Shown here in pieces: positions 14,502 to 64,000 of a DNA stretch of 64,000 nucleotides. How positions within the stretch are numbered: position 1 is the first letter of the stretch; every line of letters begins with the position of its first letter. The notes beneath the pieces were generated by a model. The model worked only from the letters and a program-made list of their open reading frames with translations. It made no database searches and was not told where the DNA came from. The stretch lies in the NCBI GenBank assembly GCA_046728075.1, contig JBKPDV010000032.1, forward strand, positions 3,790 to 67,789, in the 5' to 3' direction. The stretch is from Acidobacteriota bacterium (GTDB lineage Bacteria; Acidobacteriota; Thermoanaerobaculia; UBA5066; Gp7-AA6). The position numbers and the translations under genes are program-made.

Positions 14502-14543
14502 TTCACCCGATCACACGATCGCACGGTTTCCTGATCACGGTTG
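14502..14543 (-). promoter_or_regulatory. Conserved kinase leader ('GATCGGGTGAAGTGGAG' + ATG) between GH127 stop and kinase start
   Basis: The same ATCGGGTGAAGTG(A/G)AG-ATG block precedes the kinases at 43189 and 57070, and a related catcgg(t/g)t repeat precedes the kinase at 46002. It is a 42-nt spacer. Confidence 0.35.
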
Positions 14544-34406: not shown

Positions 34407-34451
34407 GGCGTCGATCCGACGGAATCTCTCGAAAGGATATAACCGCCGACA

Positions 34452-40555: not shown

Positions 40556-43189
40556 TCATTTCCCTTTCTCGGGGGCCCATCCGACGACGACGGTGATCGG
40601 AAGGGCCGCGTCCTCGGGTCGGCGTGAGTTGACGACGAAGCGCTGGCCATCGGGCACCACGTCATAGTGGTTGCGGGTCTCGACCGTCGGAAAGATCCGC
40701 GTCTGGAAGAGGGCTCGCGGCGGGGAAGCTTCGAACGACGGATCGTTTCGAATTTCGACGGACATGATCTTGCGGTCCGGAGAGACATAGAACATCTCTT
40801 TGCCATCCCCGCGCCATCGCGGTTGCGTTCCGCCTCCAGCGGAAATCTGCCGGCGATCTTCCAACCCCGGAAAAGCTCGGACGTAGACCTCGCGGGCTCC
40901 CGATTCTTCCGACTCGTAGGCGAGCCAGTGTCCGTCCGGCGAGAAGCGCGCTCCCATCTCGTTGAACGGATCCTTCAAGAGTGGCCGGTTCGAGCCGGTT
41001 TGCAGGTCCCGCAGACCCACATCGAAGTGGAACGTGGGCCAATCCACCGTTTCATAGACGAGGTATCGGCCATCTCGAGACACGTCATCGAGGGGCCAGA
41101 AAGCGGGAAACCGAAACAACAACTTCTCTTTCTCCGCCGCGGCGGCATCCCGCACGTAGACTTCTCCCGTCGGATAGACCGAGTAGAGGATCCTTCGACC
41201 GTCTGGCATCCAGAGCGGCGAAGCGTCGGCCAGCGCGTTCTCGAAGGAGAAACGGGCGAAGCTTCCGCGCTCGAGGTCGATCAGCCAGATCGCGGATCCG
41301 CGCTCGTCGTTCCGCGCGACGGCAACCCGGCGTCCGTCGGGCGAGACCGCCGGCTCGTAGAACGCACCGGACGGACCGAGGGCGCGGATTTCCCGCCCCG
41401 CCCGATCGTAAAGGAGCAGCCGCGTCTGGCTCAAGCCGCCTGTCTGATAGGCGAGAACGCCGTTGGAAGAGGCGGTGAAGGCAGTCGCGAGCGTGGAAAT
41501 GCCGTCCCACCAGACGTCCCCGACGAGGGGAACCGCGTCCCCGGTCACGCGAAGGCCCTTAGGATCGAACGGCTGCGCAACCAGTCGGTCGCCCGTCCGA
41601 AAGAGCACGTGACCCGGAGGTGAATAGATCGCGCCAGAATCCGCGACCGCAATGCGCCGTAATTCCTTGGAGTCGAGAGACGCGGCGGAGATCCCGGTCG
41701 CGCTTCCCGTGCCGGCGATCGACAGATACAGGAAGTGGCGCCCGTCGGGAAGAAAACTCGGCCAGCGGAAGCTTTCGCCGCTCCGCGAGGCCAGGTGAGT
41801 GATCCGGCGAGACTCTCCCCCTGCCTCCGAGACGAACCGGATCTGCCCGCCCGTCTCCGTCGAAAAAACGATCGTGCCGGTCGAACCCCACGATCCTCCC
41901 CGCGGGCCGGTCGCGTCGCAAAGAATCTGCGGCGAACCACCGGAGACGTCGATTCGCTTGAGTTTCCCCTGCGCAAAGAAGCCGACCGCGTGCCCGTCGG
42001 GAGACCAGAACGGATAAGCCGCTCCCTCCGTTGCCGGCAGAGGCTGCGCTTGCGTCGAATCGAGCCGGCGCAGGTAGAGAAGATCCCGGCCGTCGGTCTC
42101 GGTCGCCACGAAAGCCAGCGTCCGCCCATCGGGCGAAAGGGCGAGCATTCCCTGGAGAGCCGCGCCGGCGGGTGGAAGAATCGTGAACTGGAGCTTTCCG
42201 AGAGAGAGACTTTGCGGCTGGTTCGACCGGGAGAAGAGAAGGCCGCCGACCACCAGAAGCAAGGCCGCCGCGACGATCCAGCCGGCCAAACCACGAGGCG
42301 CGCGCCGAACCGCCTCGGTACTGGGACCACCCCTGACGATCTCCTCGAGCTCGAGCGCGACATCCCGGGCGCTCTGCCACCGGCGCTCGGGGTCCTTGGC
42401 GAGACACCTCCGAACCGTGTGTTCGAGCGCCGGAGGATTCACCGGTTGGATGGCGGTGATCGACGCCGGCTCCTCCTTCATGATCGAGGAGATCAACGAG
42501 GCCTGGCTCGAGCCGGAAAATGCTTTCCGGCCCGTCGCCATCTCGTAGAGCGTCGCGCCGAAGGCGAAGATGTCGGTGCGAGCATCAGCGGGCTTGGCTT
42601 CCAACTGCTCCGGCGCCATGTACTGCAGCGTGCCCAGGATCGCTCCCTCTTGCGTCAGCGCTCGCTCGGTCGGCAAAGAAGTCACGCTCGTCGAGCCGGC
42701 CGGCGCGCTCACGGCGCGGGCCAGGCCGAAGTCGAGCAGCTTGACGCCCGACTTGGTCAACATGACGTTGCCGGGCTTCAAGTCCCGGTGCACGATGCCC
42801 TGCCGGTGCGCCACGTCCAGAGCGTCGGCGATCTCGATCCCGTATCGAAGCGTCTGCTCGAGCGGCAGCGCCCCTTTCATCAGTCGGTCCGCGAGCGTCT
42901 CCCCCTCCAGATATTCCATGACCAGATACTCGACGCCGTCCTGGTTGCCCACGTCGTAGAGGGCGCATATGTGAGGGTGTGACAATGCAGATATTGTTTT
43001 CGCCTCACGCTCGAAGCGCTGGCGAACTTCCGGCGAAGAAGAAAGATGCTGCGGCAGCACCTTGACGGCGACCGTCCGGTCGAGCCGCGTGTCTCGCGCC
43101 CGATAGACCTCCCCCATTCCGCCGGCGCCCAGCGGGGAGACGACTTCGTAGGGACCTAACAGGCTTCCAGCCGCAATCGTCATCTTCAC
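40556..43189 (-). CDS. Ser/Thr protein kinase with TolB/PD40-like beta-propeller (subfamily A)
   Basis: MKMTIAAGSLLGPYEVVSPLGAGGMGEVYRARD. Its first about 900 nt is highly similar to the 43339 and 11820 genes. It is a tandem paralog of the upstream gene. Confidence 0.9.
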   Translation of the reverse strand: MKMTIAAGSLLGPYEVVSPLGAGGMGEVYRARDTRLDRTVAVKVLPQHLSSSPEVRQRFEREAKTISALSHPHICALYDVGNQDGVEYLVMEYLEGETLADRLMKGALPLEQTLRYGIEIADALDVAHRQGIVHRDLKPGNVMLTKSGVKLLDFGLARAVSAPAGSTSVTSLPTERALTQEGAILGTLQYMAPEQLEAKPADARTDIFAFGATLYEMATGRKAFSGSSQASLISSIMKEEPASITAIQPVNPPALEHTVRRCLAKDPERRWQSARDVALELEEIVRGGPSTEAVRRAPRGLAGWIVAAALLLVVGGLLFSRSNQPQSLSLGKLQFTILPPAGAALQGMLALSPDGRTLAFVATETDGRDLLYLRRLDSTQAQPLPATEGAAYPFWSPDGHAVGFFAQGKLKRIDVSGGSPQILCDATGPRGGSWGSTGTIVFSTETGGQIRFVSEAGGESRRITHLASRSGESFRWPSFLPDGRHFLYLSIAGTGSATGISAASLDSKELRRIAVADSGAIYSPPGHVLFRTGDRLVAQPFDPKGLRVTGDAVPLVGDVWWDGISTLATAFTASSNGVLAYQTGGLSQTRLLLYDRAGREIRALGPSGAFYEPAVSPDGRRVAVARNDERGSAIWLIDLERGSFARFSFENALADASPLWMPDGRRILYSVYPTGEVYVRDAAAAEKEKLLFRFPAFWPLDDVSRDGRYLVYETVDWPTFHFDVGLRDLQTGSNRPLLKDPFNEMGARFSPDGHWLAYESEESGAREVYVRAFPGLEDRRQISAGGGTQPRWRGDGKEMFYVSPDRKIMSVEIRNDPSFEASPPRALFQTRIFPTVETRNHYDVVPDGQRFVVNSRRPEDAALPITVVVGWAPEKGK

Positions 43190-43198
43190 TTCACCCGA

Positions 43199-43303
43199 TT
43201 ACACGATCACCCGATGCGCGAAAGCACCGATTTCCCCCATGCCGCCAGCACTACGTGGAGAGAAAACCTCATAAGGTTCTAACCGGCTCCCGGCGGAGAT
43301 CAC
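43199..43303 (-). pseudogene. 34-codon in-frame remnant of a kinase N-terminus (GTG...TAA) between two kinase paralogs
   Basis: It translates to V I S A G S R L E P Y E V F S P R S A G G M G E I G A F A H R V I V *. It matches the kinase N-terminus 'TISAGSRLGPYEVLS.LGAGGMGE' and then runs into the conserved leader. Confidence 0.5.
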
Positions 43304-52123: not shown

Positions 52124-53875
52124 CTAGCGGTCTGACGTAAACCCCGGCCCCCGCAAAACGCGGCCCGGGCGGGCGGCGGTGATGCGTCCTTGGTCCACGA
52201 CGAGCTGACCATTGATGGCGACGAAGGGAATGCCTTCGCAGTAATGAGCGGGGTCCGCGTAGGTCGAGCGTTCTCGGACGGTCTCGGGATTGAAAGCGAC
52301 GAGGTCAGCCATCATGCCCGCCTTCAAAATTCCGCGGTCTCGGAGCTTCATACGCGAGGCCGGCAGAGAGGTCATTTTCCGAATAGCCTCCTCGAGCGGC
52401 AGGAGTTTTTCCTCGCGGACGTACTTGCCCAGGATCCGCGCCGTTGTCCCCCACGCGCGGGGGTGAGACTTCTCCTGTGACAGCGGACCGTCGATCGCTC
52501 GCGCGCCCGCGTCGGTGCAGAAGGAGACGTGCGGATGCGCGAGGGCGGCGCGGACGTCCGACTCGCTCGTGATGAACTCGATCTTGCCGGCGTTGGCGTG
52601 ATCGGCGATCACCAAGTCGATCAAGGCGTCGATCGGATGTTTTCGCTCTTCGAGCGCAATCGCGGCCAGCGTCTTGCCCTCGTATTTCTTCCAGCTCGGA
52701 TTGAGAATTTGCACGATCAGGATTCGGGTGGCACGGCCGGCGTTCCAACCCGGATCGCGCCGGAGGAGATCCGACTTTACCCGCGCCCGCGCGGCGGGTT
52801 CCTTGAGCCGCGCGAGAAGCTTTTCGGTGCCTCCTTCCCGAGCCCAGATCGGCAGGCTCGCGTCGAGGCCGTTGGCGCTTGCCGTGTAGGGGTACTGGTC
52901 TGCCCAGATTTCGAGCCCGTCCGCTCGAGCTCTCTCCAGGCGCTTCAAGATGGCGGGCATGTGAACCTTTCGCCCCGCTGTTTTCAGGTGGTAGATCTCC
53001 GCCGGGATCCGAACCTCCCGCGCGATTCGAAAGACCTCGTCGAGGCTCCGGTCGATCCCGTTGCCTTCCGAGCGCTGGTGCGTGATGTAGATGCCACCAT
53101 AGCGGGCAGCCACCCGGGCGAGCGCGAGGATCTCCTCCGTCGACGCGAACCGGTCCGGCACGTACGCGAGCGAGGTCGAGAGACCGAACGCGCCCTCCTC
53201 CATGGCCTGAGCGACCGCGGCCTCCATGGCTTTCAACTCCTCGGATGTTGCGGGCCGGTTGTCTTTCCCGATCACGAGATCCCGCACGCTGCCCGCCCCG
53301 ACGAACGTCCCGAGATTGATGGCAGGATGCGCGCGCTCGAGAGCCTGGAAGTAGCCGGCGAGTGTCGTCCAGTCCGGTGTGACGCCGTAGTGCTCCCAGA
53401 AGTCGCGCCGCTCCGCGATCATCCGCGCATTGACAGGCGCGATGGATGTTCCCTCGCCGGTCAGATCGGTCGTGATGCCCTGAGTGATCTTGCTCGCCGC
53501 CCGGTTGTCGACGAGCAGGAAGTACTCCGACTGCCCGAGCATGTCGATGAACCCCGGACAGACGATGAGCTTGTTCGCGTCGATCCGCCGCTTCGTTTCC
53601 GCATTCGCGAGTTCTCCGACGGCGTCAATTCGGTCTCCGGCGACGCAGACATCGGCGCGAAACGCCGGCGAGCCGGTGCCGTCCACGACGCGGCCTCCGG
53701 CAAAGAGAATGTCGCACCGCGTCGGTTGGGCCTGCGCCGCGAGCCCAGGGATCGAAAGGCAAACAATGGCTATCAGCGCGAGAGACGCTCGCCTCACCGC
53801 GCCCCTTCGACGAGGAAGAGGCACGAAATCATCGCGCTTCAGGAATTCGAGACCTCGGGGCGAGAACCGTAACAA
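52124..53875 (-). CDS. D-aminoacylase / N-acyl-D-amino-acid deacylase family amidohydrolase
   Basis: It has PGFIDMLGQSE, a metal-binding HxH context and an LAYVPDRF...THQRSEG amidohydrolase core. It has a signal-like N-terminus. The true start may be the internal GTG near 53797 (VRRASLALIAIV). Confidence 0.7.
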   Translation of the reverse strand: MLRFSPRGLEFLKRDDFVPLPRRRGAVRRASLALIAIVCLSIPGLAAQAQPTRCDILFAGGRVVDGTGSPAFRADVCVAGDRIDAVGELANAETKRRIDANKLIVCPGFIDMLGQSEYFLLVDNRAASKITQGITTDLTGEGTSIAPVNARMIAERRDFWEHYGVTPDWTTLAGYFQALERAHPAINLGTFVGAGSVRDLVIGKDNRPATSEELKAMEAAVAQAMEEGAFGLSTSLAYVPDRFASTEEILALARVAARYGGIYITHQRSEGNGIDRSLDEVFRIAREVRIPAEIYHLKTAGRKVHMPAILKRLERARADGLEIWADQYPYTASANGLDASLPIWAREGGTEKLLARLKEPAARARVKSDLLRRDPGWNAGRATRILIVQILNPSWKKYEGKTLAAIALEERKHPIDALIDLVIADHANAGKIEFITSESDVRAALAHPHVSFCTDAGARAIDGPLSQEKSHPRAWGTTARILGKYVREEKLLPLEEAIRKMTSLPASRMKLRDRGILKAGMMADLVAFNPETVRERSTYADPAHYCEGIPFVAINGQLVVDQGRITAARPGRVLRGPGFTSDR

Positions 53876-54264
53876 GCGCGGAGAAGCTCACGGCTCTCGA
53901 CATGACGGAGCCGGCGCCGGCCGCCGGTCTCTTCACGGATCACGCGGACCTCCCGGATGCGGGTGGTGAGGACACGATTCCCGAACTCCAGGTGCAGGCC
54001 GCAGGCGGCGACGACGTTGGTGCGGATCACGCTGCCGCCCCAGGTGCATCCCGAGATCGAGATCCGAACCGGCGACAGACCTTGCCGGTCGAACCAACCG
54101 CCGCGGACACTGTAGGTGGCGTCTCCGTGAACGCGGATCGAATAGACGGAGTTCTCCGTGGTCACGAGGACTTCGTCTCCGCTCTTCAAATCCGATTTGC
54201 CGACAGACGAAGCGCGGCGGACCTGCCCGAGGATGGCGTTGACCGTCCGAAAGAACGCGATCAT
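53839..54264 (-). CDS. Hypothetical small protein (141 aa)
   Basis: The frame is open between kinase 54392 and the aminoacylase, starting at MIAFFRTVNAILG. No domain is recognised. It overlaps the annotated aminoacylase start by 37 nt, so it may be spurious. Confidence 0.3.
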   Translation of the reverse strand: MIAFFRTVNAILGQVRRASSVGKSDLKSGDEVLVTTENSVYSIRVHGDATYSVRGGWFDRQGLSPVRISISGCTWGGSVIRTNVVAACGLHLEFGNRVLTTRIREVRVIREETGGRRRLRHVESRELLRACYGSRPEVSNS

Positions 54265-54391
54265 CGGGACCAATTCTCGCTCATTATCCGTTGTCTTTCG
54301 AACTGCGGCGGTGCTCCCGCCCGCCGCTTTCCCGGTTGCCCGACGGGCTGAGGCTGCGAAATGGCTGCCAGGTTCTTTTCGCCATTTGCGT

Positions 54392-57070
54392 TCACTTGAG
54401 GTCTGCCACCCAGATGTCCCCTTCGGTCGCCGTTTCCGTATAGGTGATCCAACGATTGTCCTGGGTGATTCCCAGACTGAGACCGATTCCATAACCCCCG
54501 ATGGAAAAGAGCAGTTGCGACCGCTTCGTCGAAAGATCCACGAGCGAAACCCCACGGGCGTCGCGCACGAGGAGCCGCCGGCTGTCGGCGAGCCAAATAG
54601 GGATTTTCCACAGTCGGCTTGGTCCCGCATCGAGACGCTCGAATCGGTTCTCGGGAATCGAATAGACGACGACGGAATCGACTGAGCCATCCGGGTTCGC
54701 GGCGATGCCCGCGAGCGAGCGGCCGTCGCGGGACCAGGAGAGGGGCCAGAACTGTTGGGGCCCGCCGATCGGCGGCATCGAATGTGCGGGATGCGGGAAA
54801 CCGCCCGATCCTACGTCGATCGAGTACCAGCCGCCGTCTCCGCCGACTGCCTTGGTGACGATCTGCTTTCCGTCGGGCGACCAGACGGGAAAGTTTGCGG
54901 ATCCGGTCACGGCCGCTAGCCGCTCGAGTCCGCTTCCGTCGGGCCGGATCGTCCAGAGCCCATAGGCGCCGCTACGATCCGAGTAGAACGCGATCGTCTT
55001 TCCGTCGGGCGACCAGCTCGGCCCCCGATCCCGAAAGGCATCGTCGGTCAACCGGCGAAACTCCTTTCCATCCATCCGCGATACGAAGAGATCTTCCTGG
55101 CCTCCCGTCTCAATGAAGGCGACCCACTGGCCATCGGGCGAAACCTGATGGTCGCGAATTGGCTGGTTCGTCTTCAAAACGGGAAGAGGAGCTCCGACGA
55201 TCGTGCCTAAAGCGGCATCGAATCCAATCTTCAGGAGCGTCGAGCGCCAGTCGAGGCTGGCAAAGGCGAGCCGTCGCCCGTCGCGCGAGAAGCTCAACTG
55301 TCCGCTCCAGAGCGATGGCGTCGTCATCGGTTCAGGCTCCCCGAGCACGCGTCCGGATCTTTCGTCGATCCGCACGCGCCAGAGGTTCATCGTGCCTCCT
55401 CGATTGCTCGAGAAGTAGAGAAACCTGCCGTCCGGTGACCAGGTCGGGCTCCAGTCGAGGGGCGCATCGTTGGTGATGTCGATGCCCGGGCCGGTCAGCT
55501 CCGAACCGTCGGCGGCAACGGTCCAGAGGTCTCGCTGTCCGGTCGAGCCTCGCAATCCCCAGTAGGCGATCCGGTGGCCGTGCGGAGACCAGCTCGGCTG
55601 CATGCAGTCGCCCGCCCGGGAGACTTCCCGTCGGCGGCCCGTCTCGAGATCGACGGCCCAGAGCCCGCCAACCCGGCTCGCTCGGTCGGTCGGAAAGAAG
55701 AAGGAGCCGCTGGCGACGGCGATCTCGCGTCCGTCGGGCGACCAGGTGGGGTTGTAGCCGAAGTCGGTGACGCGCTTGACGGACTCTCCCGTGGAGCCCA
55801 TGACGAAGATTCCACCGCCGGCTCGCTCCGAGCGAAACGCGATGCGCTCGCCATCCGGAGAAAACACCGGCTGCCAATCGTCAACCGTCGAGTCCGGCGT
55901 GAGCGCAACCGGATTTCGCCCTCCGACTCGAAGCATGTAGAGGCTTTTGCGCCCCGCCTCGTCACGGACATAGACGACGTTCTTTCCATCCGGAGAGAGC
56001 GTCGGCGAGGACTCGACGCCGGGAGCGTCCGTGAGTTGGAGGAACGAGACCGGCCGGGATGCACGCTCGACGGAAGGGTCGCCGATGCGAGTGCGCCGAC
56101 CCGCGACGAATGCGGCCGCTGCTACAGCGGCGATCGCCAGAATCGTCAACGGAACGAGGATGCCGGTTCGGCGCCGCTTCCGCAAAGGCTCGACGGCCGC
56201 GGCCGGGCCGCTCGGCACCGCGCCTCCGATGACTGTTTCGAGGGCGAACGCGAGATCGTGAGCCGTGTCGAACCGCTCCTCCGGCCGTTTCTCGAGACAA
56301 TGGCGGAGAATTCTCTCGATCGGCGCGGCGAATCGGCCCGAAGGCTCCGCCAGCTCCGGCGGATCTTTCTGCGCGATCGCCGCCATCGTCTCGGCCGCCG
56401 ACTCGCCGCGAAAGGCGCGCTCGCCCGTGAGCATCTCGTAGAGAACGCATCCGAGTGAGAAGATGTCCGAGCGCGCGTCGGCGGGCTTGCCTCGAACTTG
56501 TTCAGGCGACATGTAGCCCACAGTCCCCATGACAGTGCCCGGCTCGGTCGAAGCGGCGACGGTCGGTGACTGCGTGTTCTCGAGGTCGCGCGCGACGACC
56601 TTGGCGAGCCCGAAGTCCAGGATCTTCACGCGCCCTTGGAAGGTCACGAAAAGGTTCTCCGGCTTCAGATCGCGATGGACGATTCCCTTCTCGTGCGCCG
56701 CCCCGAGCCCCTGCGCAATCTGCAGCGCGTATTCGAGCGCACGGCGTTGAGGAATCGGCCCCTCGGCCAACCGCTGGCGCAGCGTCTCGCCCGTCAACAG
56801 CTCCGTCGCCGCGTAGGTGATGCCGCCGTCGCTGCCGAGATCGTAGATGCCGAGGATGTTCGGATGCGAGAGCGCGGCGACCGCTTTCGCCTCCCGCTCG
56901 AAGCGCTCGAGGGCCTCGGGATCCGAGGCGAGTTTTTGCGGCAGAACCTTGATCGCAACATCCCGGTCCAGCCGCGTATCGCGGGCTTTGTAGACCTCGC
57001 CCATTCCACCCGCCCCCAGGGACGACAAGATTTCGTAGGGTCCTAAGCGAGTTCCTAGCAAGGCCGCCAT
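54392..57070 (-). CDS. Ser/Thr protein kinase with TolB/PD40-like beta-propeller (subfamily C)
   Basis: It has the ATG at 57070 (MAALLGTRLGPYEILSSLGAGGMGEVYKARDTRLDRDVAIKVLP), HRDLKPENLFV, DFGLAKV and PD40 blades (SPDGK/SPDGR xN). Confidence 0.9.
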   Translation of the reverse strand: MAALLGTRLGPYEILSSLGAGGMGEVYKARDTRLDRDVAIKVLPQKLASDPEALERFEREAKAVAALSHPNILGIYDLGSDGGITYAATELLTGETLRQRLAEGPIPQRRALEYALQIAQGLGAAHEKGIVHRDLKPENLFVTFQGRVKILDFGLAKVVARDLENTQSPTVAASTEPGTVMGTVGYMSPEQVRGKPADARSDIFSLGCVLYEMLTGERAFRGESAAETMAAIAQKDPPELAEPSGRFAAPIERILRHCLEKRPEERFDTAHDLAFALETVIGGAVPSGPAAAVEPLRKRRRTGILVPLTILAIAAVAAAAFVAGRRTRIGDPSVERASRPVSFLQLTDAPGVESSPTLSPDGKNVVYVRDEAGRKSLYMLRVGGRNPVALTPDSTVDDWQPVFSPDGERIAFRSERAGGGIFVMGSTGESVKRVTDFGYNPTWSPDGREIAVASGSFFFPTDRASRVGGLWAVDLETGRRREVSRAGDCMQPSWSPHGHRIAYWGLRGSTGQRDLWTVAADGSELTGPGIDITNDAPLDWSPTWSPDGRFLYFSSNRGGTMNLWRVRIDERSGRVLGEPEPMTTPSLWSGQLSFSRDGRRLAFASLDWRSTLLKIGFDAALGTIVGAPLPVLKTNQPIRDHQVSPDGQWVAFIETGGQEDLFVSRMDGKEFRRLTDDAFRDRGPSWSPDGKTIAFYSDRSGAYGLWTIRPDGSGLERLAAVTGSANFPVWSPDGKQIVTKAVGGDGGWYSIDVGSGGFPHPAHSMPPIGGPQQFWPLSWSRDGRSLAGIAANPDGSVDSVVVYSIPENRFERLDAGPSRLWKIPIWLADSRRLLVRDARGVSLVDLSTKRSQLLFSIGGYGIGLSLGITQDNRWITYTETATEGDIWVADLK

Positions 57071-57072
57071 CT

Positions 57073-57201
57073 TCACTTCACCCGATGAACCGATGATCCA
57101 ATGACCCGATGCGCGAAGCGCCAGACCTCCCCCATTCCTCCGGCGCCGAGCGGCGAGAGGACCTCGTCGGGTCCCAGGCGGGTCCCCGCCGAAAGATTCA
57201 C
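57073..57201 (-). pseudogene. 42-codon kinase N-terminus remnant / uORF linking two kinase genes (GTG overlaps upstream stop as GTGA; its TGA lies 2 nt before the next ATG)
   Basis: It translates to V N L S A G T R L G P D E V L S P L G A G G M G E V W R F A H R V I G S S V H R V K *. It shares the 'FAHRVI' leader-encoded tail with the 43199 fragment. Confidence 0.5.
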
Positions 57202-59894
57202 GGCCTGGATCCGGCGAGATGTTTTCCGAAGTTGAGCAAAACGTCCAAACGAGGCGTCTGGTTCGTCTCCTTCTGGCGGACGAGGACCACGAATTGCTTG
57301 CCGTCGGCGGAGACGTCGTAGATGTCGTTCCACTCGCTCGGTGCCGGCCGATCGATTTTGACGACTCGATGCGGCTCTCCGGGCGTGAAGGTCGGCTCTT
57401 CGCGAATCGGCACGGCAAAGATCTCGTCGTTCCAAACGAAGAAGAGCTCCTTGCCGTCGTGGGACCAGCGCGGCGCGGTGCCGCCCGCTCTGGAGATTTG
57501 CCATCGGCCCGCCAGACTCGGATACGCCTGAACATAAATCTGCGGCCCGGGCTCGTATTCGCCCGTGTAAGCGACCCATCGCCCGTTGGGCGAGATCATG
57601 CCTCGATGCTCGGCGCCGGGCGTCGCGATGAAGCCTCGCGCCTTGCGGTCTCCCGAGAGCGGAATGAGGAAAATGTCGGCGCGACTCGGAAGGCCGCTCA
57701 GAGTCACCAAGAGTGCGGAACCGTCGGGTGCGAAAGAGTCCTCAGTGATCGGTACGCGATAGGGGGACTTCCAGAGCACCTCGGCGGCCGCGCGGCCATC
57801 GGCGCGCTGGCGAAGAACGGCCTCTCCGGTAGGCGGCGAAAAAACGACGCTTTGGCCGTCCGGAGTCCAGCAGGGGGAAAGCGCCTGCCCGGTGGACGTC
57901 AGCTGGAAGTTGCTGGTATGAGCGAGGTCGGCAATCCAGATGTCGCTGCGCGCACCTCCTCCCGGTCCCTCCGCGTACGCCAGTTTCTGACCATCGGGAG
58001 AAAGAGAAAGACCCGTGTAGAGTCCCGGCGGGATTCCCGTCGGCTGGCGCCGGCCGCTGCGATCGATCCAGACGATTTCGTTCGACCCTTGCGCGGAGTA
58101 ACCGACGGCGTACACGAAGACTCCGTTCCTCGAGACGTCGAAGTAGGACACTCCGCTGCGCGGATCGCCGCTGACTCCTTGCAGAACCGGCACTGCCGGG
58201 CCTTGCACCTCGGCTGTCTTCGGATCGAAAGGCGCCGCGAGCACGTCGCCGCGACGAGCCAGGAGGAGACGGTCCGGCTGCGAATAACGAGCGAGGCTCG
58301 CGCCGCGATAGACGCCATGTCTCTTTCCGGTCGCAAGCGACACGGCGTCGATGCGTGAATCATCGTAGTCGCCGGGCTTGTCTTCGGTGCCGACGGTGAA
58401 GAGAACCCACTTGCCCTCGACGACCTCCGGCCACCGGTGACTGCGCTCGCGGGTGGTGGTATCGATCGTCGTCAGCGGACGCGCCTCTCCTCCCGCGGCG
58501 GGAATCCGCAGAATCGGCGAGTTCACCGTCGGAGAGAAAACGATCGACCCGTCTTCTCCCCACGCCGCGCCGCGGCTGCGAGGCACGGATGCCAGGATCA
58601 CCGGAGTGCCGCCCCGGATCGCGGTCTTCTTCAACTTGTCTCCGGCGACGAATGCCAACCACTCGCCGTCGGGAGAAAAGAAGGGGTCGGCTCCCCCCTC
58701 GGTCCCAGGCAATGGCTCCGCCGTTTCCCGTGAGAAATCTCGGACGAAGATGCGGTGCTCCTCTCCGGTCCGACCTCGAAACGCAATCCGCCGGCCGTCC
58801 GGAGAGATCGCCAGGATCTGCACCTGATCCCCGACAGTTGGATCGAGGCTGATGTTTTCCGGCAGAGCAACGGATAGGTGGATCAAGTCCTCGCCGCCGC
58901 CTGGCGAGCGCCTCTGAAGAAGAAGAATCGCGACGAGGGCAATGACGAGAGCGGCGGCGATGATCCACGGAATCCACGTCGCTCGTCTCGATCCCGCTCC
59001 TTTCACCGCCATCTTGGTTTCGGCGGATCGAGCCGGCGCGCGCAGCGACTCTTCGATTTCCAGGCGCGCGTCGGCGATGTCGTGAAGCCGGCTCTTGGGG
59101 TCGCGCTCCAGACATCGGTGGAGCAGACGCCTCACCCCGTCGGGTGTCTCCGACGGGAGCTCGCGGAAATCGATTTCCTGCCTCAGCACCGCGGCAAGCA
59201 CGTCCGAGACCGTCTCTCCCTCGAAGAGCCGACGCCCCGTCAACATCTCCCAAAGAATCACTCCGAAGGCCCAGATGTCGGCGCGCTTGTCCACTGCGCG
59301 GCCGCGAGCCTGCTCGGCGGACATGTAAGCCGCGGTGCCGATCACGATTCCCGCTTGCGTGGCCGCGGCCGTGATCGTGGGCGAAGTCGAGACGTCCGGC
59401 GAGGAACCCTCCTTGACCAGCGCCTTCGCGAGACCGAAATCGAGCACCTTGACCTGACCGTCGGGCGTGAGCTTGACGTTGGCCGGCTTCAAGTCCCGGT
59501 GCACGATTCCACGCTCGTGCGCCGCCTCGAGCGCCTCCGCGATCTGGCGCGCGATGCCGAGAGCCTCTTCGATCGGAAGCGCGCCTTTGGCCAGCCGCTC
59601 CGCGAGGGTCTCGCCTTCGACGAGTTCCAAGACGAGTGTCTCCAGGCCCTCCGACTCCTCCAGGCCGTAGATCGCGGCAATATGAGGGTGATTCAATGAA
59701 GCGAGCAGCTGCGCCTCGCGCCGAAAGCGCGCGAGCCTCTCGGCATCCGCTGCGAACGCCTCGGGGAGCACCTTGATGGCGACGTCCCGGCCGAGCCTCG
59801 GGTCCTTGGCCCGCCACACTTCGCCCATACCGCCTGTGCCGAGCGGGGAAAGGATCTCGTAAGGCCCGAGGCGGGTACCTGGCGAGAGGCTCAT
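57198..59894 (-). CDS. Ser/Thr protein kinase with TolB/PD40-like beta-propeller (subfamily D)
   Basis: It has the ATG at 59894 (MSLSPGTRLGPYEILSPLGTGGMGEVWRAKDPRLGRDVAIKVLP), HRDLKPANVKL and DFGLAKA. Its start overlaps the upstream stop (ATGA). Confidence 0.9.
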   Translation of the reverse strand: MSLSPGTRLGPYEILSPLGTGGMGEVWRAKDPRLGRDVAIKVLPEAFAADAERLARFRREAQLLASLNHPHIAAIYGLEESEGLETLVLELVEGETLAERLAKGALPIEEALGIARQIAEALEAAHERGIVHRDLKPANVKLTPDGQVKVLDFGLAKALVKEGSSPDVSTSPTITAAATQAGIVIGTAAYMSAEQARGRAVDKRADIWAFGVILWEMLTGRRLFEGETVSDVLAAVLRQEIDFRELPSETPDGVRRLLHRCLERDPKSRLHDIADARLEIEESLRAPARSAETKMAVKGAGSRRATWIPWIIAAALVIALVAILLLQRRSPGGGEDLIHLSVALPENISLDPTVGDQVQILAISPDGRRIAFRGRTGEEHRIFVRDFSRETAEPLPGTEGGADPFFSPDGEWLAFVAGDKLKKTAIRGGTPVILASVPRSRGAAWGEDGSIVFSPTVNSPILRIPAAGGEARPLTTIDTTTRERSHRWPEVVEGKWVLFTVGTEDKPGDYDDSRIDAVSLATGKRHGVYRGASLARYSQPDRLLLARRGDVLAAPFDPKTAEVQGPAVPVLQGVSGDPRSGVSYFDVSRNGVFVYAVGYSAQGSNEIVWIDRSGRRQPTGIPPGLYTGLSLSPDGQKLAYAEGPGGGARSDIWIADLAHTSNFQLTSTGQALSPCWTPDGQSVVFSPPTGEAVLRQRADGRAAAEVLWKSPYRVPITEDSFAPDGSALLVTLSGLPSRADIFLIPLSGDRKARGFIATPGAEHRGMISPNGRWVAYTGEYEPGPQIYVQAYPSLAGRWQISRAGGTAPRWSHDGKELFFVWNDEIFAVPIREEPTFTPGEPHRVVKIDRPAPSEWNDIYDVSADGKQFVVLVRQKETNQTPRLDVLLNFGKHLAGSRP

Positions 59895-62512
59895 GGGTTG
59901 GGACCGAAGAGGCGCGACGAGATCGTCGGTTTTCGCCAGGAGCCGAGGTTCTCGACGAGGTACAGCGTGTTCAGGTACTGCTGGCACGAGTAAGCGTAGG
60001 ACTTCCCGTCGGGTGTCATGGCGACGGCGCGCACGGACATGCCTGCGGTGTCGCTCGGGATGAGCTCCTTCCACAGCGTGGCGCGGCCGCTTTCGACATC
60101 GATCTTCTCGACCCTTGCCGGGATCTCGCCCAGTCGGAAAACATAGAAGCCCTTGCCGTCCGCCGCCCACTGAACGGGCACGAAGAGCCCGGCAAGGCCC
60201 GGGACCGGGCGCGGCTGCCCTCCGTCGACGGGGCAGAGCACGATCTGATTCTCGGGCGAGCGAGCAACGACCAGTCGCCCGTCCGGCGAAAGCGCGTTGC
60301 CCCCGGCGACGAGCTCGTACCCTTCCGGAGCCACGCGCCTCGGTTCATGCCCATCCGGATCGACGACGAAGATGCCGGTCTTCCCGCCTTTCGCCTGGCC
60401 CCAGACCAGAACTCTCTTGCCGTCGCGGAACCAGCTCGCCCATCGGATCGTCTCGAAGAATCCGTCGCTCACCGGTCTCGGCCCTCCGGCCGCTGTCGGC
60501 TGCGCCAGGAGCTTTCCCCGTTGGCTCGCAAGCACCCAGGCGCCGTCGGGCGAGAGGCCGTGCGCCGAGCCGTCTCCCAATCGAATCGGAGGCGAGCTGT
60601 CCCCTTTTGCGATCCAAACGCCTTGCGCGCCTTGTGAAAGGACTTCTCGAAAGACGAGCAGCCTGCCGTCTTGCGAGAGGTCGACCAGCCGCAGGTCCAT
60701 TCGGCTCACGAGAGGAGATTCGGTCTTCTGACCCGAGAGCAACCCGCGCGTCCATTCCTGCCAGTCGAAGAGGGTGATCAGGGCCCTCCCGTCCCGGGAG
60801 ACATCGTTGAGATCGGCAGTCAACGGTCCACGTTCGAGGAGGCGCTGCCGGCCCGAGAGATCCGCTGCCATAATCGGCGTCTCCTCCCCTCCCCCGGAGA
60901 TGCTTGCGGGGAACCAGATCTCTTCGCCGTCGGGTGACCACGTGGAAGCCCAGAAGTCGGGGCGAACGGGACCGACCACGGCCTTCCGGCTCTGAGAGTC
61001 AACGACCGACAGCGAGTAACCGTTGAAGGGCAGACCCTCGTAGAAGGCGATCCGATTGCCGCGGGGTGAGACGCGAGCCGACGTAATCCAGGCCGGGCTC
61101 TCATAGGCCAGTCGGCCGGGCGGATACTCCAGCCGCTGCCGCGGTCCGGCTTGCCGGACGACGGCAAGGTCCTTTCCTTCGGGATCCCAATCGGCATACC
61201 GCACTTCACGCAGGACCTCGCGAGGGGATCCGCCGGAAAGCGGCACGAGCGCGAGCGTCCCGCGGCGGAAGTAGAGGTTGTAGTCGATTTTCGGTTCGAG
61301 CAGGATGGCCATCTCACCGCGCGATGAAACCGCGAGAAGCGATGCGCTCGGCAGGGGAAGCGCCGTCGATTCGCGGCCTCCCGGGCGGGTCGAGAAGATC
61401 TTAGACGGCGCCCCGTCCCAGTCGGCGCTGTAGAGAATTGTCTGGCCGTCCGGGGCGAAGCGGGCGTTGCTGATGAAGCCGCGCCGGTAAGTGAGGCGCT
61501 GGTAAGTTGGAGAAAGGCGGCTCCTGCCGCCGGCGAACCAGGACCCTGCGAGAAGTCCGGCCGCGAGCAATGCCAGTCCGGCCGCGACGGCCATTGCCGC
61601 GCGGACCCGACGAGGCGAGTCTGTCGCCGTCACTCGCGCCCCGCCGCTCGTTGTCGGAAGACCCGACAGCGCCTCGATGGCGAAGGCGATGTCGCTCGAG
61701 GACTGGAACCTTCGCTCGGGATTCTTCTCGAGGCAGTGGCGGAGGATGCGCTCGAGGCCCGGGCTGATGTTCTCGTTGGTGACGGAGAGGTCCGGGGGCT
61801 CCTCCCTCAAAATCGCGGCCATCGTCTCGCCGGCCGAATCGGCGTGGAAAGCGCGCTTGCCCGAGAGCATCTCGTAGAAGATCGCTCCGAACGAGAAGAT
61901 GTCGCTCCTCGCGTCGGCCGGCCTGCCCTTGACCTGCTCGGGGGACATGTAGCCGAGCGTGCCCATCACGACGCCGGGCTCGGTTCCGGGCGTGACGGTC
62001 GGAAGGTTCGTCGCGCTGCCGGATTGCCCGACCTGCGTCAGCTTCGCCAATCCGAAGTCGAGGATCTTGACGCGGCCGTCCTTCGTGACGAAGAGGTTCT
62101 CGGGCTTCAAATCCCGATGGACGATTCCCTTGTCATGCGCCGCCGCGAGGCCCTGGGTGATCTGCAGCGCATAGTCGATCGCCTTGCGCGGCGAGAAGCG
62201 GCCTGCCGAAAGCTCCACGCGCAAGGTTTCGCCCTCGAGCAATTCCTGGACGACATAGGGAGCGTTGTCGTGCATCCCGATGTCGTAGACGGCGGTGATG
62301 TTGGGGTGATTGAGCGCGCCCGCCGCCTGGGCCTCCTGCTCGAAGCGCCGGAGACGATCCGGATCCGTCGAGAAGGAGACGGGCAGCACCTTGATCGCAA
62401 CGTCACGCTTCAGCCGCTCATCCCGCGCCCGATACACCTCCCCCATCCCACCTGCGCCCAGGGGACTCAGCACCTCATAAGGCCCAAGACGGCTTCCTGT
62501 CGCGATGGTCAT
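59891..62512 (-). CDS. Ser/Thr protein kinase with TolB/PD40-like beta-propeller (subfamily B)
   Basis: It has MTIATGSRLGPYEVLSPLGAGGMGEVYRARDERLKRDVAIKVLP, HRDLKPENLFV and DFGLAKLTQ. Its ATG overlaps the stop of the upstream gene (ATGA). Confidence 0.9.
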   Translation of the reverse strand: MTIATGSRLGPYEVLSPLGAGGMGEVYRARDERLKRDVAIKVLPVSFSTDPDRLRRFEQEAQAAGALNHPNITAVYDIGMHDNAPYVVQELLEGETLRVELSAGRFSPRKAIDYALQITQGLAAAHDKGIVHRDLKPENLFVTKDGRVKILDFGLAKLTQVGQSGSATNLPTVTPGTEPGVVMGTLGYMSPEQVKGRPADARSDIFSFGAIFYEMLSGKRAFHADSAGETMAAILREEPPDLSVTNENISPGLERILRHCLEKNPERRFQSSSDIAFAIEALSGLPTTSGGARVTATDSPRRVRAAMAVAAGLALLAAGLLAGSWFAGGRSRLSPTYQRLTYRRGFISNARFAPDGQTILYSADWDGAPSKIFSTRPGGRESTALPLPSASLLAVSSRGEMAILLEPKIDYNLYFRRGTLALVPLSGGSPREVLREVRYADWDPEGKDLAVVRQAGPRQRLEYPPGRLAYESPAWITSARVSPRGNRIAFYEGLPFNGYSLSVVDSQSRKAVVGPVRPDFWASTWSPDGEEIWFPASISGGGEETPIMAADLSGRQRLLERGPLTADLNDVSRDGRALITLFDWQEWTRGLLSGQKTESPLVSRMDLRLVDLSQDGRLLVFREVLSQGAQGVWIAKGDSSPPIRLGDGSAHGLSPDGAWVLASQRGKLLAQPTAAGGPRPVSDGFFETIRWASWFRDGKRVLVWGQAKGGKTGIFVVDPDGHEPRRVAPEGYELVAGGNALSPDGRLVVARSPENQIVLCPVDGGQPRPVPGLAGLFVPVQWAADGKGFYVFRLGEIPARVEKIDVESGRATLWKELIPSDTAGMSVRAVAMTPDGKSYAYSCQQYLNTLYLVENLGSWRKPTISSRLFGPNP

Positions 62513-64000
62513 GAGGGTGCCGGGGGATCGGCTTGCGCCGGTGAGGGCACGTCCAGGCCCGCCTTGCGCCAGCCGTCAATCACTCGCGCCACGTACTGCG
62601 GCTCCCACCATTTCTCGATATCGCTGGTTGCGGTAGCGGCGAAGTCGGGCCGCAGTTTTAGCAGATCCCTCAAGGCTTTCTTGGCCGCCTCAACTTCTCC
62701 GAGCTGACCGCAGGCAGCGGCAATCATCGCGAGCGAACCCCAGTGGCCGGGCAGATTGGCTTTGAGCACGAAACTGAGTGCGCCGCGGTCGTCGCCCTGG
62801 CGGTACGCGTTGTAGAGGTCGGCATACCAGTACCATCCGGGATGACTGGGATTGAGCTGCTTGGCGCGCCCCGCCAGCGCGAGGCCACGCTCCCACTCGC
62901 CCGCATAGGTCAGAAGCTCGCCGAGAAAAGCGAGGGAGTTGCCGTCCATGGGGTTGAGTGCAACGGCCCGCTCCGCGGCATTTCGAAAACTCTGGAAATC
63001 CTTCTGGAAGAAGAGCGCCTGTGCCAGGCTGAAATAGGCGAGATGATTGGATGGCCCCGCCTCGACGGCACGCCGTGCGGCGGCTAACCCGCTCGCCAGG
63101 GAGTCCACCCGAAGTTTGAATCCCTGGCCATGATCCTGGACGCACATCAGCGCGAGCATCGCCCAGGCATCGGCAGAGCCCGGTGCCTTCTGCACCGCCA
63201 ACTCCAGGCCAGAACGCGCCGCGGTGAGTTCCTCGGCGGTGACCCGCTCGAAGTAGCCGAAGGACCGCAGCACGGCATCATAGGGGCTTAGCTGCTCGGG
63301 CGCCCGGCTGCGCAACTCCGCGCTCATGCTCCGAGGCAGAATCCCGTGGACGTCCGCCACCGTCGAGACAATCCGCGGAACCAGGTCGTCCTGAAGCTCG
63401 AACACCGCTTCCGGGCTGAAGGCGCGCTCGTAGTTCTCGGCCCAGAGATGGGCACCGGAAACGGCATCCACGAGCTGCACCCCCAGGCGCAGCTTCGTCC
63501 CGGCCTGCCGCAAGCTGCCTTCCATCACGTAGCGCGCGCCGAGTTCCTTGCCGATCGCCCGCACGTCCCCCGACTCGCTGGAATACTTCGCAGTCGAACC
63601 CCGGGCAATCACTCGGAGGTACGAAAAGCGCGACAGGCCAGTGACGATTTCTTCGGATAGGCCATCTGCCAGTCCTTTCAGCTCCGCGTTTGCGCCCGCG
63701 ACGTTGAATGGCAGCACCGCGACCCAGAATCCCTCGTCGGCGCGAACCGCTCCCGAGGCCTCGTGTGAGTAAGGGCCTGCTGGCGCTGGCGCGGCCGCGG
63801 GACCTGCTGCTCCCTCTTCTTCGGCAATCTCCAGTCCCGCCTTGCGGAGACCGTCGATATTGTGTTCGGCGAATGCCAGGTCGTGAAACCATCTCCCAAG
63901 TTCTTCGCGCGCCGTTTTGGCAAAGTCGGGCCGGATCGCAAGCACCTCTTGCAGTGCCTTCCGGGCCTCCTCGCGCATGCCAAGCTGCCCGTAAGCCGCC
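62509..64000 (-). CDS. Kinase-less TolB_N + TPR modular protein, internally duplicated (5' end outside window)
   Basis: It has 'FWVAVLPFNVAGANAELKGLADGLSEEIVTGLSRFSYLRVIARG' followed by TPRs. Residues at the window edge (YGQLGMREEARKALQEVLAIRPDFAKTAREELGRWFHDLAF...) repeat the protein's own C-terminus (CGQLGEVEAAKKALRDLLKLRPDFAATATSDIEKWWEPQYV...). The frame is open to nt 64000. Confidence 0.7.
   Translation of the reverse strand, partial: AAYGQLGMREEARKALQEVLAIRPDFAKTAREELGRWFHDLAFAEHNIDGLRKAGLEIAEEEGAAGPAAAPAPAGPYSHEASGAVRADEGFWVAVLPFNVAGANAELKGLADGLSEEIVTGLSRFSYLRVIARGSTAKYSSESGDVRAIGKELGARYVMEGSLRQAGTKLRLGVQLVDAVSGAHLWAENYERAFSPEAVFELQDDLVPRIVSTVADVHGILPRSMSAELRSRAPEQLSPYDAVLRSFGYFERVTAEELTAARSGLELAVQKAPGSADAWAMLALMCVQDHGQGFKLRVDSLASGLAAARRAVEAGPSNHLAYFSLAQALFFQKDFQSFRNAAERAVALNPMDGNSLAFLGELLTYAGEWERGLALAGRAKQLNPSHPGWYWYADLYNAYRQGDDRGALSFVLKANLPGHWGSLAMIAAACGQLGEVEAAKKALRDLLKLRPDFAATATSDIEKWWEPQYVARVIDGWRKAGLDVPSPAQADPPAPS

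What the first reader, a model, noticed from the sequence alone, without database searches (positions are those of the whole stretch)
54392..64000. Translationally coupled operon: kinase-less TolB_N/TPR sensor module, then three receptor kinases from different subfamilies
All four genes are on the minus strand. The sensor-module gene's TGA overlaps the kinase-6 ATG (ATGA at 62509-62512). Kinase-6's TGA overlaps the kinase-5 ATG (ATGA at 59891-59894). Kinase-5's TGA then overlaps the GTG of a 42-codon kinase-N-terminus-like uORF, whose own stop lies 2 nt before the kinase-4 ATG. Three eSTKs with different kinase-domain subtypes but similar PD40 ectodomains would be made stoichiometrically with a kinase-less ectodomain paralog. 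That suggests a heteromeric receptor or decoy arrangement, which as far as I know is not a described signalling architecture.
Basis: partly seen in the sequence, partly recalled or inferred. Interest (0 to 1): 0.7.

Follow-up and report, generated by a model that had tools for sequence, protein, structure and literature searches.

The report
Coupled tandem array of receptor kinases
This is part of a fast-changing tandem array of serine/threonine receptor-kinase genes in an acidobacterial (Thermoanaerobaculia-like) genome, and both odd features are ordinary: the "kinase-less sensor" is the tail of a giant gene cut by the window edge, and the small upstream ORF is the leftover 5' end of an earlier kinase gene.

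Summary
Co-transcription and translational coupling are plausible.

The central claim fails. The "sensor-module gene" has no in-frame stop before the window edge. A 94.5%-identical metagenome contig carries the frame on into the TPR tail of a preceding module. Among relatives whose 5' end is visible, this ~485-aa module was never seen as a stand-alone gene with an intact 5' end. It is one of 1-6 tandem modules behind a head domain: kinase in 47 of 69, otherwise cyclase or TIR, or the ORF is split. These proteins have no transmembrane helix, so the module is cytoplasmic and is not a PD40-ectodomain paralog.

K4, K5 and K6 are three divergent classes (kinase domains 49-62% identical, ectodomains 24-29%). 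The window holds ten such kinases.

The four-gene order is kept only in the 94.5% relative. K5 orthologs are always followed by a kinase, but of varying type.

The uORF is a fossil kinase 5' end fused to a repeated leader. A second copy lies at 43199-43303.

Verdict: an ordinary paralog array. The relic/leader unit is a minor curiosity.

The parts
62509..64000 (-). 3' end (last ~485-aa TolB_N-like + TPR module) of a larger multi-module gene that runs off the window. Its TGA overlaps the K6 ATG.
   Evidence: The frame is open to the window edge. L082 continues it upstream. Homologs are 2-6-module proteins with a kinase, cyclase or TIR head and no TM helix. Pfam finds TPR hits, with TolB_N sub-threshold. 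The AF2 model has pLDDT 81.8 and shows a small beta/alpha subdomain plus a TPR solenoid.
59891..62512 (-). K6: Hanks-type Ser/Thr kinase, one TM helix (~res 305-328), propeller-type ectodomain of the Kc/Kf class
   Evidence: Pkinase 178.6 bits, PD40 20.8 bits. VAIK/HRDLKPEN/DFG motifs are intact. TM segment. Ectodomain is 41-42% identical to Kc and Kf. The ATG lies 5 codons before the motif.
57198..59894 (-). K5: Hanks-type kinase, TM helix, PD40 propeller ectodomain of the Kb/Kd class; an outlier kinase domain
   Evidence: Pkinase 171 bits, PD40 81.8 bits. Kinase domain is 46-53% identical to all the other window kinases. Orthologs at 71-77% identity occur in many metagenomes.
57073..57201 (-). 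42-codon uORF: a fossil 5' end of a kinase gene (28 kinase-like codons, with the Tyr of the RLGPYE motif, present in all ten window kinases, replaced by Asp), reading on into the leader. Its GTG overlaps the K5 TGA.
   Evidence: In L084, L085 and L091 the same GTGA is the true start of an intact downstream kinase.
57071..57117 (-). Leader TTCGCGCATCGGGTCATTGGATCATCGGTTCATCGGGTGAAGTGAAG directly before the K4 ATG. It is a degenerate GGGTGATC-type repeat with stops in more than one frame and a moderately SD-like 3' end.
   Evidence: The motif occurs 4 times in the window against 0.26 expected, always just upstream of a kinase ATG. Alignment and nhmmer. Anti-SD duplex -8.4 kcal/mol against a background of -5.5 +/- 2.9. 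No stable RNA structure and no Rfam hit.
54392..57070 (-). K4: Hanks-type kinase, TM helix, strong PD40 propeller ectodomain of its own class
   Evidence: Pkinase 177 bits, PD40 156.9 bits. 68% identical over full length to the kinases that follow K5 orthologs in L084 and L085.
43184..43303 (-). Second copy of the relic + leader unit, upstream of kinase Kd (40556-43183): VISAGSRLEPYEVFSPRSAGGMGEIGAFAHRVIV* followed by the leader
   Evidence: (nhmmer E=1.9e-17).
14496..14535 (-). Leader-only copy upstream of kinase Kb (ATG 14495)

Best explanation
The region is one stretch of a lineage-specific tandem array of paralogous Hanks-type Ser/Thr kinase genes. The window holds ten in 64 kb, and the genome is acidobacterial, probably Thermoanaerobaculia-like.

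Gene by gene:
- The first ORF is the last module of a giant soluble protein whose 5' part lies beyond the window. It most likely has an N-terminal kinase head followed by several ~485-aa TolB_N-like/TPR modules.
- K6, K5 and K4 are single-pass receptor kinases with three different propeller ectodomain classes.

Likely expression (inferred, not shown):
- The genes are probably co-transcribed.
- K6 and K5 lack an SD-like site and begin inside the preceding stop (ATGA). They are probably translated by termination-reinitiation.
- K4 has its own leader with an SD-like end.

The 42-codon ORF is the fossil 5' end of the kinase gene that was once coupled to K5 through the same GTGA. It was left behind when the downstream gene's 5' region was rearranged or replaced among paralogs. 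It may still be translated and hand ribosomes on to K4.

Array composition turns over quickly by duplication, insertion, deletion and domain shuffling. Nothing indicates an obligate four-protein receptor or a decoy.
For: - Ten kinases with intact catalytic motifs, all starting 5 codons before G-x-RLGPYE.
- The ORF is open at the window edge and continues in L082.
- Of 69 homologous loci with a visible 5' end, 47 have a kinase head in the same ORF. Eight checked others have Guanylate_cyc and one has TIR_2. Several more are frameshift-split with a kinase ORF just upstream.
- The three closest relatives whose ORF 5' end is complete (L001, L002, L004; 77-83% identity) are Thermoanaerobaculia with kinase heads. 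L003 (78%) also shows a kinase domain, but its ORF is cut at the contig end.
- The giants have no TM helix.
- Identity between K4, K5 and K6: kinase domains 49-62%, ectodomains 24-29%. Kinase-domain and ectodomain groupings disagree, which implies shuffling.
- Junction series after K5 orthologs: GTGA straight into an intact K4 ortholog (L084); GTGA into a TPR kinase, then ATGA into a K4 ortholog (L085); GTGA into a Kf/K6-type kinase (L091); GTGA, a decayed relic ORF, then ATGA into a Kd-type kinase (L083); leader only, then a Kd-type kinase (L088).
- A second relic + leader copy lies at 43199-43303, homologous through the junction.
- Anchor genes are conserved while the kinases between them differ: in L092 the giant is 76% and the amidohydrolase 81% identical, with VapBC, other kinases and Aldedh in between.
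- No promoter-like site and no junction terminator. SD analysis.
- Kinase paralog expansion in an acidobacterium is documented (PMC3174227).
- Overlaps of -4 nt are the commonest spacing and give termination-reinitiation coupling (PMC6728339, PMC10666635).
Against: - The N-terminus of the giant gene in this genome was not seen. L082 adds only 120 nt, so a kinase head is inferred from relatives and not shown.
- Every K5 ortholog examined is followed by another kinase (8 of 8 contexts, 5 of them by a 4-nt overlap). Some functional pairing is therefore not excluded.
- There are no expression data. The sigma-70 and terminator scans are crude and may not suit this phylum.
- How the relic + leader unit arose (gene conversion, local duplication or deletion) is not resolved.
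Confidence: 0.75

Rival explanations
1. A kinase-less TolB_N/TPR sensor or decoy is made in fixed stoichiometry with three receptor kinases, and together they form a heteromeric receptor, which would be a new signalling architecture.
For: The 4-nt overlaps are real. Overlapping pairs are enriched for heteromeric-complex subunits in general (PMC10666635). The junctions are kept in the 94.5% relative L082.
Against: - The ORF is truncated by the window, and its homologs carry kinase, cyclase or TIR heads.
- The module proteins have no TM helix or signal sequence, so they sit on the opposite side of the membrane from the PD40 ectodomains.
- The fold is unrelated to PD40.
- Only 1 of 67 informative giant-gene loci is followed by a kinase with a 4-nt overlap, and that kinase is a different type.
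- In L092 a VapBC pair sits between the giant gene and the next kinase.
Confidence: 0.04
2. A looser functional module. K5-type kinases work as a pair with whichever receptor kinase is encoded immediately downstream, for example by heterodimerisation or cross-phosphorylation. Tight translational coupling serves co-assembly, and the partner is swappable.
For: All 8 K5-ortholog contexts plus the window have a kinase directly downstream. Five of the 8 use a 4-nt overlap, and two more use a relic ORF or a leader. The GTGA at the K5 stop is kept in L083, L084, L085, L088 and L091 as well as the window. Cross-phosphorylation between bacterial kinases is known in other species (PMC4166321, abstract only).
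Against: These genomes are so dense in kinases that a kinase neighbour is expected often (ten in this 64-kb window). The partner type varies (K4, TPR, Kf/K6, Kc and Kd types). L086 has a 298-nt gap and L090 a 21-nt gap. There is no experimental evidence.
Confidence: 0.15
3. The 42-codon ORF is kept by selection as a relay uORF. Ribosomes ending K5 reinitiate at the overlapping GTG, translate the relic, stop 2 nt before the K4 ATG and reinitiate. This restores the K5-to-K4 coupling that a 128-nt gap would otherwise abolish. It is compatible with the best explanation as an add-on.
For: The GTGA is the ancestral functional start (L084, L085). The ORF stays open to 2 nt before the ATG. In L083 a decayed relic ORF is overlapped at both ends, by GTGA and by ATGA. 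Gaps of about 20 nt nearly abolish reinitiation (PMC10666635).
Against: At 65% GC about 68% of random 15-codon stretches stay open (my estimate), so an open frame is weak evidence. The peptide is decaying (Tyr to Asp in RLGPYE; the L009 and L083 copies are degenerate). The second copy at 43303 starts 34 nt after the upstream stop and ends 15 nt before the ATG, so it does not form a tight relay. K4 has its own SD-like leader. JGI's gene caller did not call it.
Confidence: 0.25
4. The overlaps are annotation artefacts from wrongly chosen start codons.
For: Automatic gene calls on the identical JGI contig start K5 and K4 at an internal Met 22 codons downstream.
Against: Those internal starts would delete the conserved strand and Gly-loop. 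All ten window kinases, and 57 of the 83 kinase ORFs found by the motif scan across the window and the 82 loci held at that point, have a start codon (ATG, GTG or TTG) exactly 5 codons before the motif. The junctions are identical in L082.
Confidence: 0.03

Closest known systems
Paralog expansion of Ser/Thr protein kinases in large acidobacterial genomes (Ca. Solibacter usitatus Ellin6076; PMC3174227)
   Same: Many divergent kinase paralogs, generally below 50% identity over full length in Solibacter, under purifying selection. They are read as expanded environmental sensing.
   Different: This genome is a Thermoanaerobaculia-like lineage. The paralogs sit in dense co-directional arrays with 4-nt overlaps. 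That paper does not describe relic 5' ends or leaders.
Receptor-type Hanks kinases with a beta-propeller sensor domain (e.g. M. tuberculosis PknD with an NHL propeller; from my own knowledge, not checked here)
   Same: N-terminal cytoplasmic kinase, a single TM helix and an extracytoplasmic propeller domain.
   Different: The propellers here are PD40/TolB/Tricorn-type and about 540 aa long, probably two propellers. Ligands are unknown.
Overlapping ATGA/GTGA gene pairs translated by termination-reinitiation (PMC6728339, PMC10666635)
   Same: Stop/start overlaps of -4 nt between co-directional genes, and no SD-like sequence in front of K6 and K5.
   Different: The partners here are paralogous signalling kinases, not known complex subunits. 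One junction carries a fossil ORF between the two genes.
Head + [TolB_N-like/TPR] signalling proteins annotated 'TolB-like protein' or 'adenylate cyclase' (class III cyclase-TolB_N-TPR, kinase-TolB_N-TPR)
   Same: The module in the window is 65-83% identical to modules of such proteins. They have a cytoplasmic head followed by an alpha/beta subdomain and a TPR solenoid.
   Different: The relatives here carry 2-6 tandem copies of the whole ~485-aa module (1500-2900 aa proteins). I found no description of this in the papers searched. The head of the window's copy was not seen.

Membership tests
Hanks-type (eukaryotic-like) Ser/Thr protein kinase | Pkinase domain above Pfam gathering score, with catalytic Lys (VAIK), HRDLKPxN loop and DFG | tested here: met
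   K4, K5 and K6 score 177, 171 and 178.6 bits against a 31.7 cut-off. All ten window kinases have the motifs.
Receptor-type (single-pass transmembrane) kinase | One hydrophobic TM helix between the kinase domain and the C-terminal domain | tested here: met
   20-residue uncharged hydrophobic segments at ~302-328 in K4, K5 and K6. Topology itself was not tested.
PD40 / TolB-type beta-propeller ectodomain | PD40 repeats above Pfam gathering score (20.9 bits) | tested here: met
   K4 scores 156.9 bits and K5 81.8 bits. K6 scores only 20.8 bits, which is marginal, but its ectodomain is 41-42% identical to Kc and Kf, which score 40.5 and 35.7 bits.
TolB_N-like domain (PF04052) in the upstream module | Match to TolB_N above gathering score (22.4 bits), or a clear fold match | tested here: inconclusive
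   There is no in-frame stop up to the window edge. L082 continues the frame into a preceding module. Relatives have kinase, cyclase or TIR heads.
Translationally coupled operon (termination-reinitiation) | Co-directional genes with a -4/-1 overlap or a spacer of at most a few nt | tested here: met
   Giant/K6 -4, K6/K5 -4, K5/uORF -4, uORF/K4 +2. The direct K5-to-K4 distance is 127 nt.
Translationally coupled operon (termination-reinitiation) | A single transcript, and downstream translation that depends on upstream translation | not testable with these tools
   Only consensus scans were possible: 0 promoter-like sites, and 11 terminator-like sites against 7.0 +/- 2.7 expected, none in a junction.
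Conserved gene cluster encoding a complex | The same gene order kept across diverged relatives | tested here: not met
   The order is kept only in L082 (94.5% nt). K5 orthologs at 71-77% identity have varying neighbours. Only 1 of 67 giant-gene loci is followed by a kinase at -4. L092 keeps the anchor genes but has different kinases between them.

The most novel reading that the evidence does not exclude
Kinase genes in these arrays behave as swappable cassettes that are exchanged at the conserved 5' end. Each swap leaves a fossil start-to-Gly-loop ORF, which, together with a GGGTGATC-repeat leader, is kept as a relay that preserves ribosome hand-over. On this reading, K5-type kinases would always be co-translated with a variable partner kinase, giving a combinatorial hetero-kinase sensing system.
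Probability: 0.12. Interest if true: 0.55.

Novelty: new member of a known kind. Interest (0 to 1): 0.25.

Why it matters
As proposed, a kinase-less decoy made in fixed ratio with three receptor kinases would have been a new bacterial signalling architecture. The evidence does not support that.

What remains is a clear example of how very large bacterial kinomes are organised and remodelled:
- dense co-directional arrays with 4-nt overlaps
- rapid turnover of members between conserved anchor genes
- shuffling between kinase domains and sensor domains
- fossil 5' ends that record past replacements

This is useful background for annotating soil Acidobacteriota. Gene callers mis-start these kinases and split the giant genes. 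It also gives a small, testable case for whether a relic ORF can relay translational coupling.

Tried and rejected
- **Exact-sequence look-ups of K6 and K5.** They found nothing because public gene calls start at an internal Met. The identical K5 turned up through a homology search as P0001, but its contig has no retrievable DNA.
- **Reaching past the window edge.** An exact-DNA metagenome scan gave L082, which adds only 120 nt, and L081. L081 shares only the junction region; its protein ends one module earlier. The homology search with the module returned mostly fragments on short contigs. P0136 lies at a contig end. The head domain of this genome's giant gene therefore remains unseen.
- **K4 as a frameshifted or programmed-frameshift gene with the uORF as its true N-terminus.** Rejected. 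K4 has its own canonical ATG-x4-G-x-RLGPYE start and is full length. The relic is separated from it by leader sequence containing stop codons.
- **The 1047-aa ORF 54392-57535 as the real K4.** Rejected. It overlaps 338 nt of K5 in another frame and has no homology upstream of 57070.
- **A structured RNA or known RNA family in the K5-K4 spacer.** Folding z-scores were +0.32 and +1.10, and there was no Rfam hit.
- **Promoter and terminator scan.** Uninformative beyond 'nothing at the junctions'. One weak hairpin plus T-run at 57261-57245 lies inside conserved K5 coding sequence.
- **Regex search for more relics.** It found only the window copy and a truncated kinase in L063. nhmmer found the second window copy and two leader-only copies.

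Full report
**1. Observation**

The minus strand of 54392-64000 carries four long ORFs and one short one. I read the junctions directly.
- The upstream ORF ends ...CCC TCA TGA, and its TGA overlaps the K6 ATG (ATGA, 62509-62512).
- K6 ends ...AAC CCA TGA, overlapping the K5 ATG (ATGA, 59891-59894).
- The K5 TGA (57198-57200) is overlapped by a GTG at 57201. That GTG opens a 42-codon ORF, VNLSAGTRLGPDEVLSPLGAGGMGEVWRFAHRVIGSSVHRVK*. Its TGA (57073-57075) is followed by AG and then the K4 ATG at 57070.

The starts are well founded. All ten kinase genes in the window have a start codon exactly five codons before the conserved G-x-RLGPYE motif, and the GTG of the short ORF has the same spacing. 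The longer ORFs listed for K4 (to 57535) and K5 (to 60170) are high-GC read-through. The coordinates and overlaps are therefore confirmed.

**2. The 'kinase-less sensor module' is a window-edge artefact**

The frame of 62509-63978 has no stop up to base 63999, so the ATG at 63978 is an internal Met. The ~60 residues that follow it (MREEARKALQEVLAIRPDFAKTAREELGRW...GLRKAGLEI) repeat the module's own C-terminal tail (EVEAAKKALRDLLKLRPDFAAT...GWRKAGLDV).

A metagenome contig, L082, is 94.5% identical to window 64000-59762. It continues the frame 40 codons further into TPR sequence of a preceding module (GWYWFANFNDAYRRRDYRGAL...).

I fetched 80 GTDB loci that encode the module at 63-83% identity.
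- The module is one of usually 2-6 tandem ~485-aa units in proteins of about 1000-2900 aa.
- Of 69 loci with a visible 5' end, 47 have a Pkinase head in the same ORF.
- Among the rest, eight that I checked have a class III cyclase head and one has a TIR head. Several are frameshift-split, with a kinase-bearing ORF just upstream.
- The three closest relatives with a complete ORF 5' end (L001, L002, L004; Thermoanaerobaculia MAGs, 77-83% identity) have kinase heads. L003 (78%) also shows a kinase domain, but its ORF is cut at the contig end.
- None of the seven giants I scanned has a TM helix. The first module follows the kinase domain after about 30 residues.

**3. The three kinases**

K4, K5 and K6 have intact catalytic motifs and one TM helix each.
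- Kinase domains are 49-62% identical to each other.
- Ectodomains are only 24-29% identical, over partial lengths.
- Each ectodomain belongs to a different class shared with other kinases in the window: K6 with Kc and Kf (41-42%), K5 with Kb and Kd (34-36%), and K4 alone.
- Kinase-domain and ectodomain groupings disagree. For example, the TPR kinase Ka has a kinase domain 70% identical to K6. That implies domain shuffling.

'Different subfamilies' is right. 'Similar PD40 ectodomains' holds only at the fold level.

**4. Operon and coupling**
- No sigma-70-like site was found in 53800-64000.
- Terminator-like hits number 11 against 7.0 +/- 2.7 expected, and none lies in a junction.
- K6, K5 and the relic GTG have weaker-than-average complementarity to a generic anti-SD tail (-3.5 to -4.1 kcal/mol; background -5.5 +/- 2.9). 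K4 has -8.4.

With 4-nt overlaps, termination-reinitiation is the expected mechanism for K6 and K5 (PMC6728339, PMC10666635). This is inferred, not shown. The same papers show that -4 is by far the commonest spacing of co-directional genes, so the overlaps alone are not unusual.

**5. Synteny**

The giant/K6/K5 junctions are kept in L082 (94.5% nt). Beyond that the order dissolves.
- Among 67 informative giant-gene loci, 11 have a same-strand kinase downstream, 5 have one within 500 nt, and 1 (L037) has a 4-nt overlap. In L037 the downstream kinases are a K5-like kinase and a third type, not K6.
- K5 orthologs at 71-77% identity have varying upstream neighbours: a HATPase gene, PIN toxins, other kinases.
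- Their downstream gene is always a kinase, but of varying type:

| Locus | Junction after the K5 ortholog | Downstream kinase |
|---|---|---|
| L084 | GTGA | K4 ortholog (68%) |
| L085 | GTGA | TPR kinase, then ATGA into a K4 ortholog |
| L091 | GTGA | Kf/K6-type |
| L089 | ATGA | kinase (cut by the contig end) |
| L090 | 21-nt gap | Kc-type |
| L083 | GTGA, 35-codon decayed relic ORF, ATGA | Kd-type |
| L088 | leader only | Kd-type |
| L086 | 298-nt gap | Kf-type |

- L092 keeps both anchor genes (giant 76%, amidohydrolase 81%). Between them it has VapBC, a Kf-like kinase, a TPR kinase and an aldehyde dehydrogenase.

Only the K5-K4 adjacency recurs.

**6. The uORF**

Its first 28 codons are a kinase 5' end, with start-x4-GTRLGP. 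The Tyr of the RLGPYE motif, present in all ten window kinases, is replaced by Asp. Its GTGA is the same junction that starts intact kinases in L084, L085 and L091.

After GGMGEVW it runs into TTCGCGCATCGGGTCATTGGATCATCGGTTCATCGGGTGAAGTGAAG-ATG. The 3' half of this leader occurs directly before three of the ten window kinase starts: 4 motif matches against 0.26 expected, all just upstream of an ATG. It also occurs in L088.

A second complete relic + leader unit lies upstream of Kd (43303-43184: VISAGSRLEPYEVFSPRSAGGMGEIGAFAHRVIV*). It is homologous through the relic/leader junction. A decayed copy precedes the giant kinase in L009.

Kd and K4 are not close paralogs, so the unit has spread, or been copied by mis-registered gene conversion, independently of the gene body. 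The K4 5' codons (TTA GGA CCC TAC GAA) resemble those of Kd. I could not resolve the exact route.

There is no unusual RNA fold and no Rfam family. The simplest reading is a fossil of gene replacement. It may still relay ribosomes from K5 to K4, since its stop lies 2 nt before the ATG, but the open frame is weak evidence at 65% GC and the peptide is decaying.

**7. Comparison and verdict**

This is a member of a known kind: expanded, divergent Ser/Thr kinase paralogs in soil Acidobacteriota (PMC3174227), arranged as overlapping co-directional genes (PMC6728339, PMC10666635). A recent atlas of bacterial kinases notes TPR as the one accessory domain that recurs across kinase families, but does not mention these architectures (10.1101/2025.01.12.632604).

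The heteromeric-receptor or decoy architecture is not supported. Three points deserve modest interest:
- the relic + leader unit
- the constant presence of a kinase after K5-type genes
- the multi-module giants with swappable heads

Noticed in passing
L001-L080 (e.g. L001:3797-9865, L038:5531-14134, L005:5777-11446, L062:9491-11191): The ~485-aa TolB_N-like/TPR module is 63-83% identical across Acidobacteriota, Verrucomicrobiota and a betaproteobacterial MAG. It occurs as 1-6 tandem copies behind interchangeable heads (Pkinase, Guanylate_cyc, TIR_2), with no TM helix. I found no description of these giant multi-module proteins in the papers searched.
   Followed up: partly
window 43184-43303 (-): A second kinase-5'-end relic ORF plus leader sits upstream of kinase Kd. 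It is homologous to the K4 uORF unit through the junction, although Kd and K4 are distant paralogs.
   Followed up: yes
window 57078-57094, 43191-43215, 14503-14519 (-); L088:3101-3149: A GGGTGATC-like repeat leader ending ATCGGGTGAAGTG(A/G)AG lies directly before kinase ATGs. GGTGATC is complementary to the conserved 16S 3' tail (my own knowledge), so it may act as an extended SD or standby site. The repeat also places TGA stops in several frames.
   Followed up: partly
whole window (8908-62512): There are ten Hanks-type kinase genes in 64 kb, all on the minus strand: seven with propeller ectodomains, two with TPR, plus the giant at the edge. Kinase-domain and ectodomain similarity groupings are incongruent, which suggests domain shuffling.
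   Followed up: partly
L082:4281-4409: In the 94.5% relative, the K5 ortholog starts like K5 (MSLSPGTRLGPYEIL) and then switches to sequence 94% identical to the K6 5' region, right at the contig end. This is either an assembly chimera at a shared k-mer or gene conversion between neighbours.
   Followed up: no
L081:3-1841: A related contig shares the module-junction sequence, but its protein stops where the window's continues into another module. Module number varies between close relatives.
   Followed up: partly
L083:9324-9985, L089:6349-6977, L092:1976-2541: Toxin-antitoxin pairs (FitA-like/PIN, VapB/PIN) are inserted inside kinase arrays of relatives, directly upstream of kinase genes.
   Followed up: no
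L083:15443-18775, L088:5804-9124, L089:2952-6302, L090:760-4107: Large BNR/Sortilin-Vps10 propeller proteins (~1100 aa) recur next to the kinases in relatives. In L083 and L088 they overlap the preceding kinase gene by 4 nt.
   Followed up: no
window 53839-54264 (-): A 141-aa ORF lies 127 nt downstream of K4. JGI called it as a gene on the identical contig. It has no Pfam family on record and was not analysed further.
   Followed up: no
window 34407-35834 (-): The ORF containing kinase Kc stays open for ~480 codons upstream of its canonical ATG (34406), and a 509-aa plus-strand ORF (34443-35969) overlaps that stretch. I did not determine which of these, if either, is coding.
   Followed up: no
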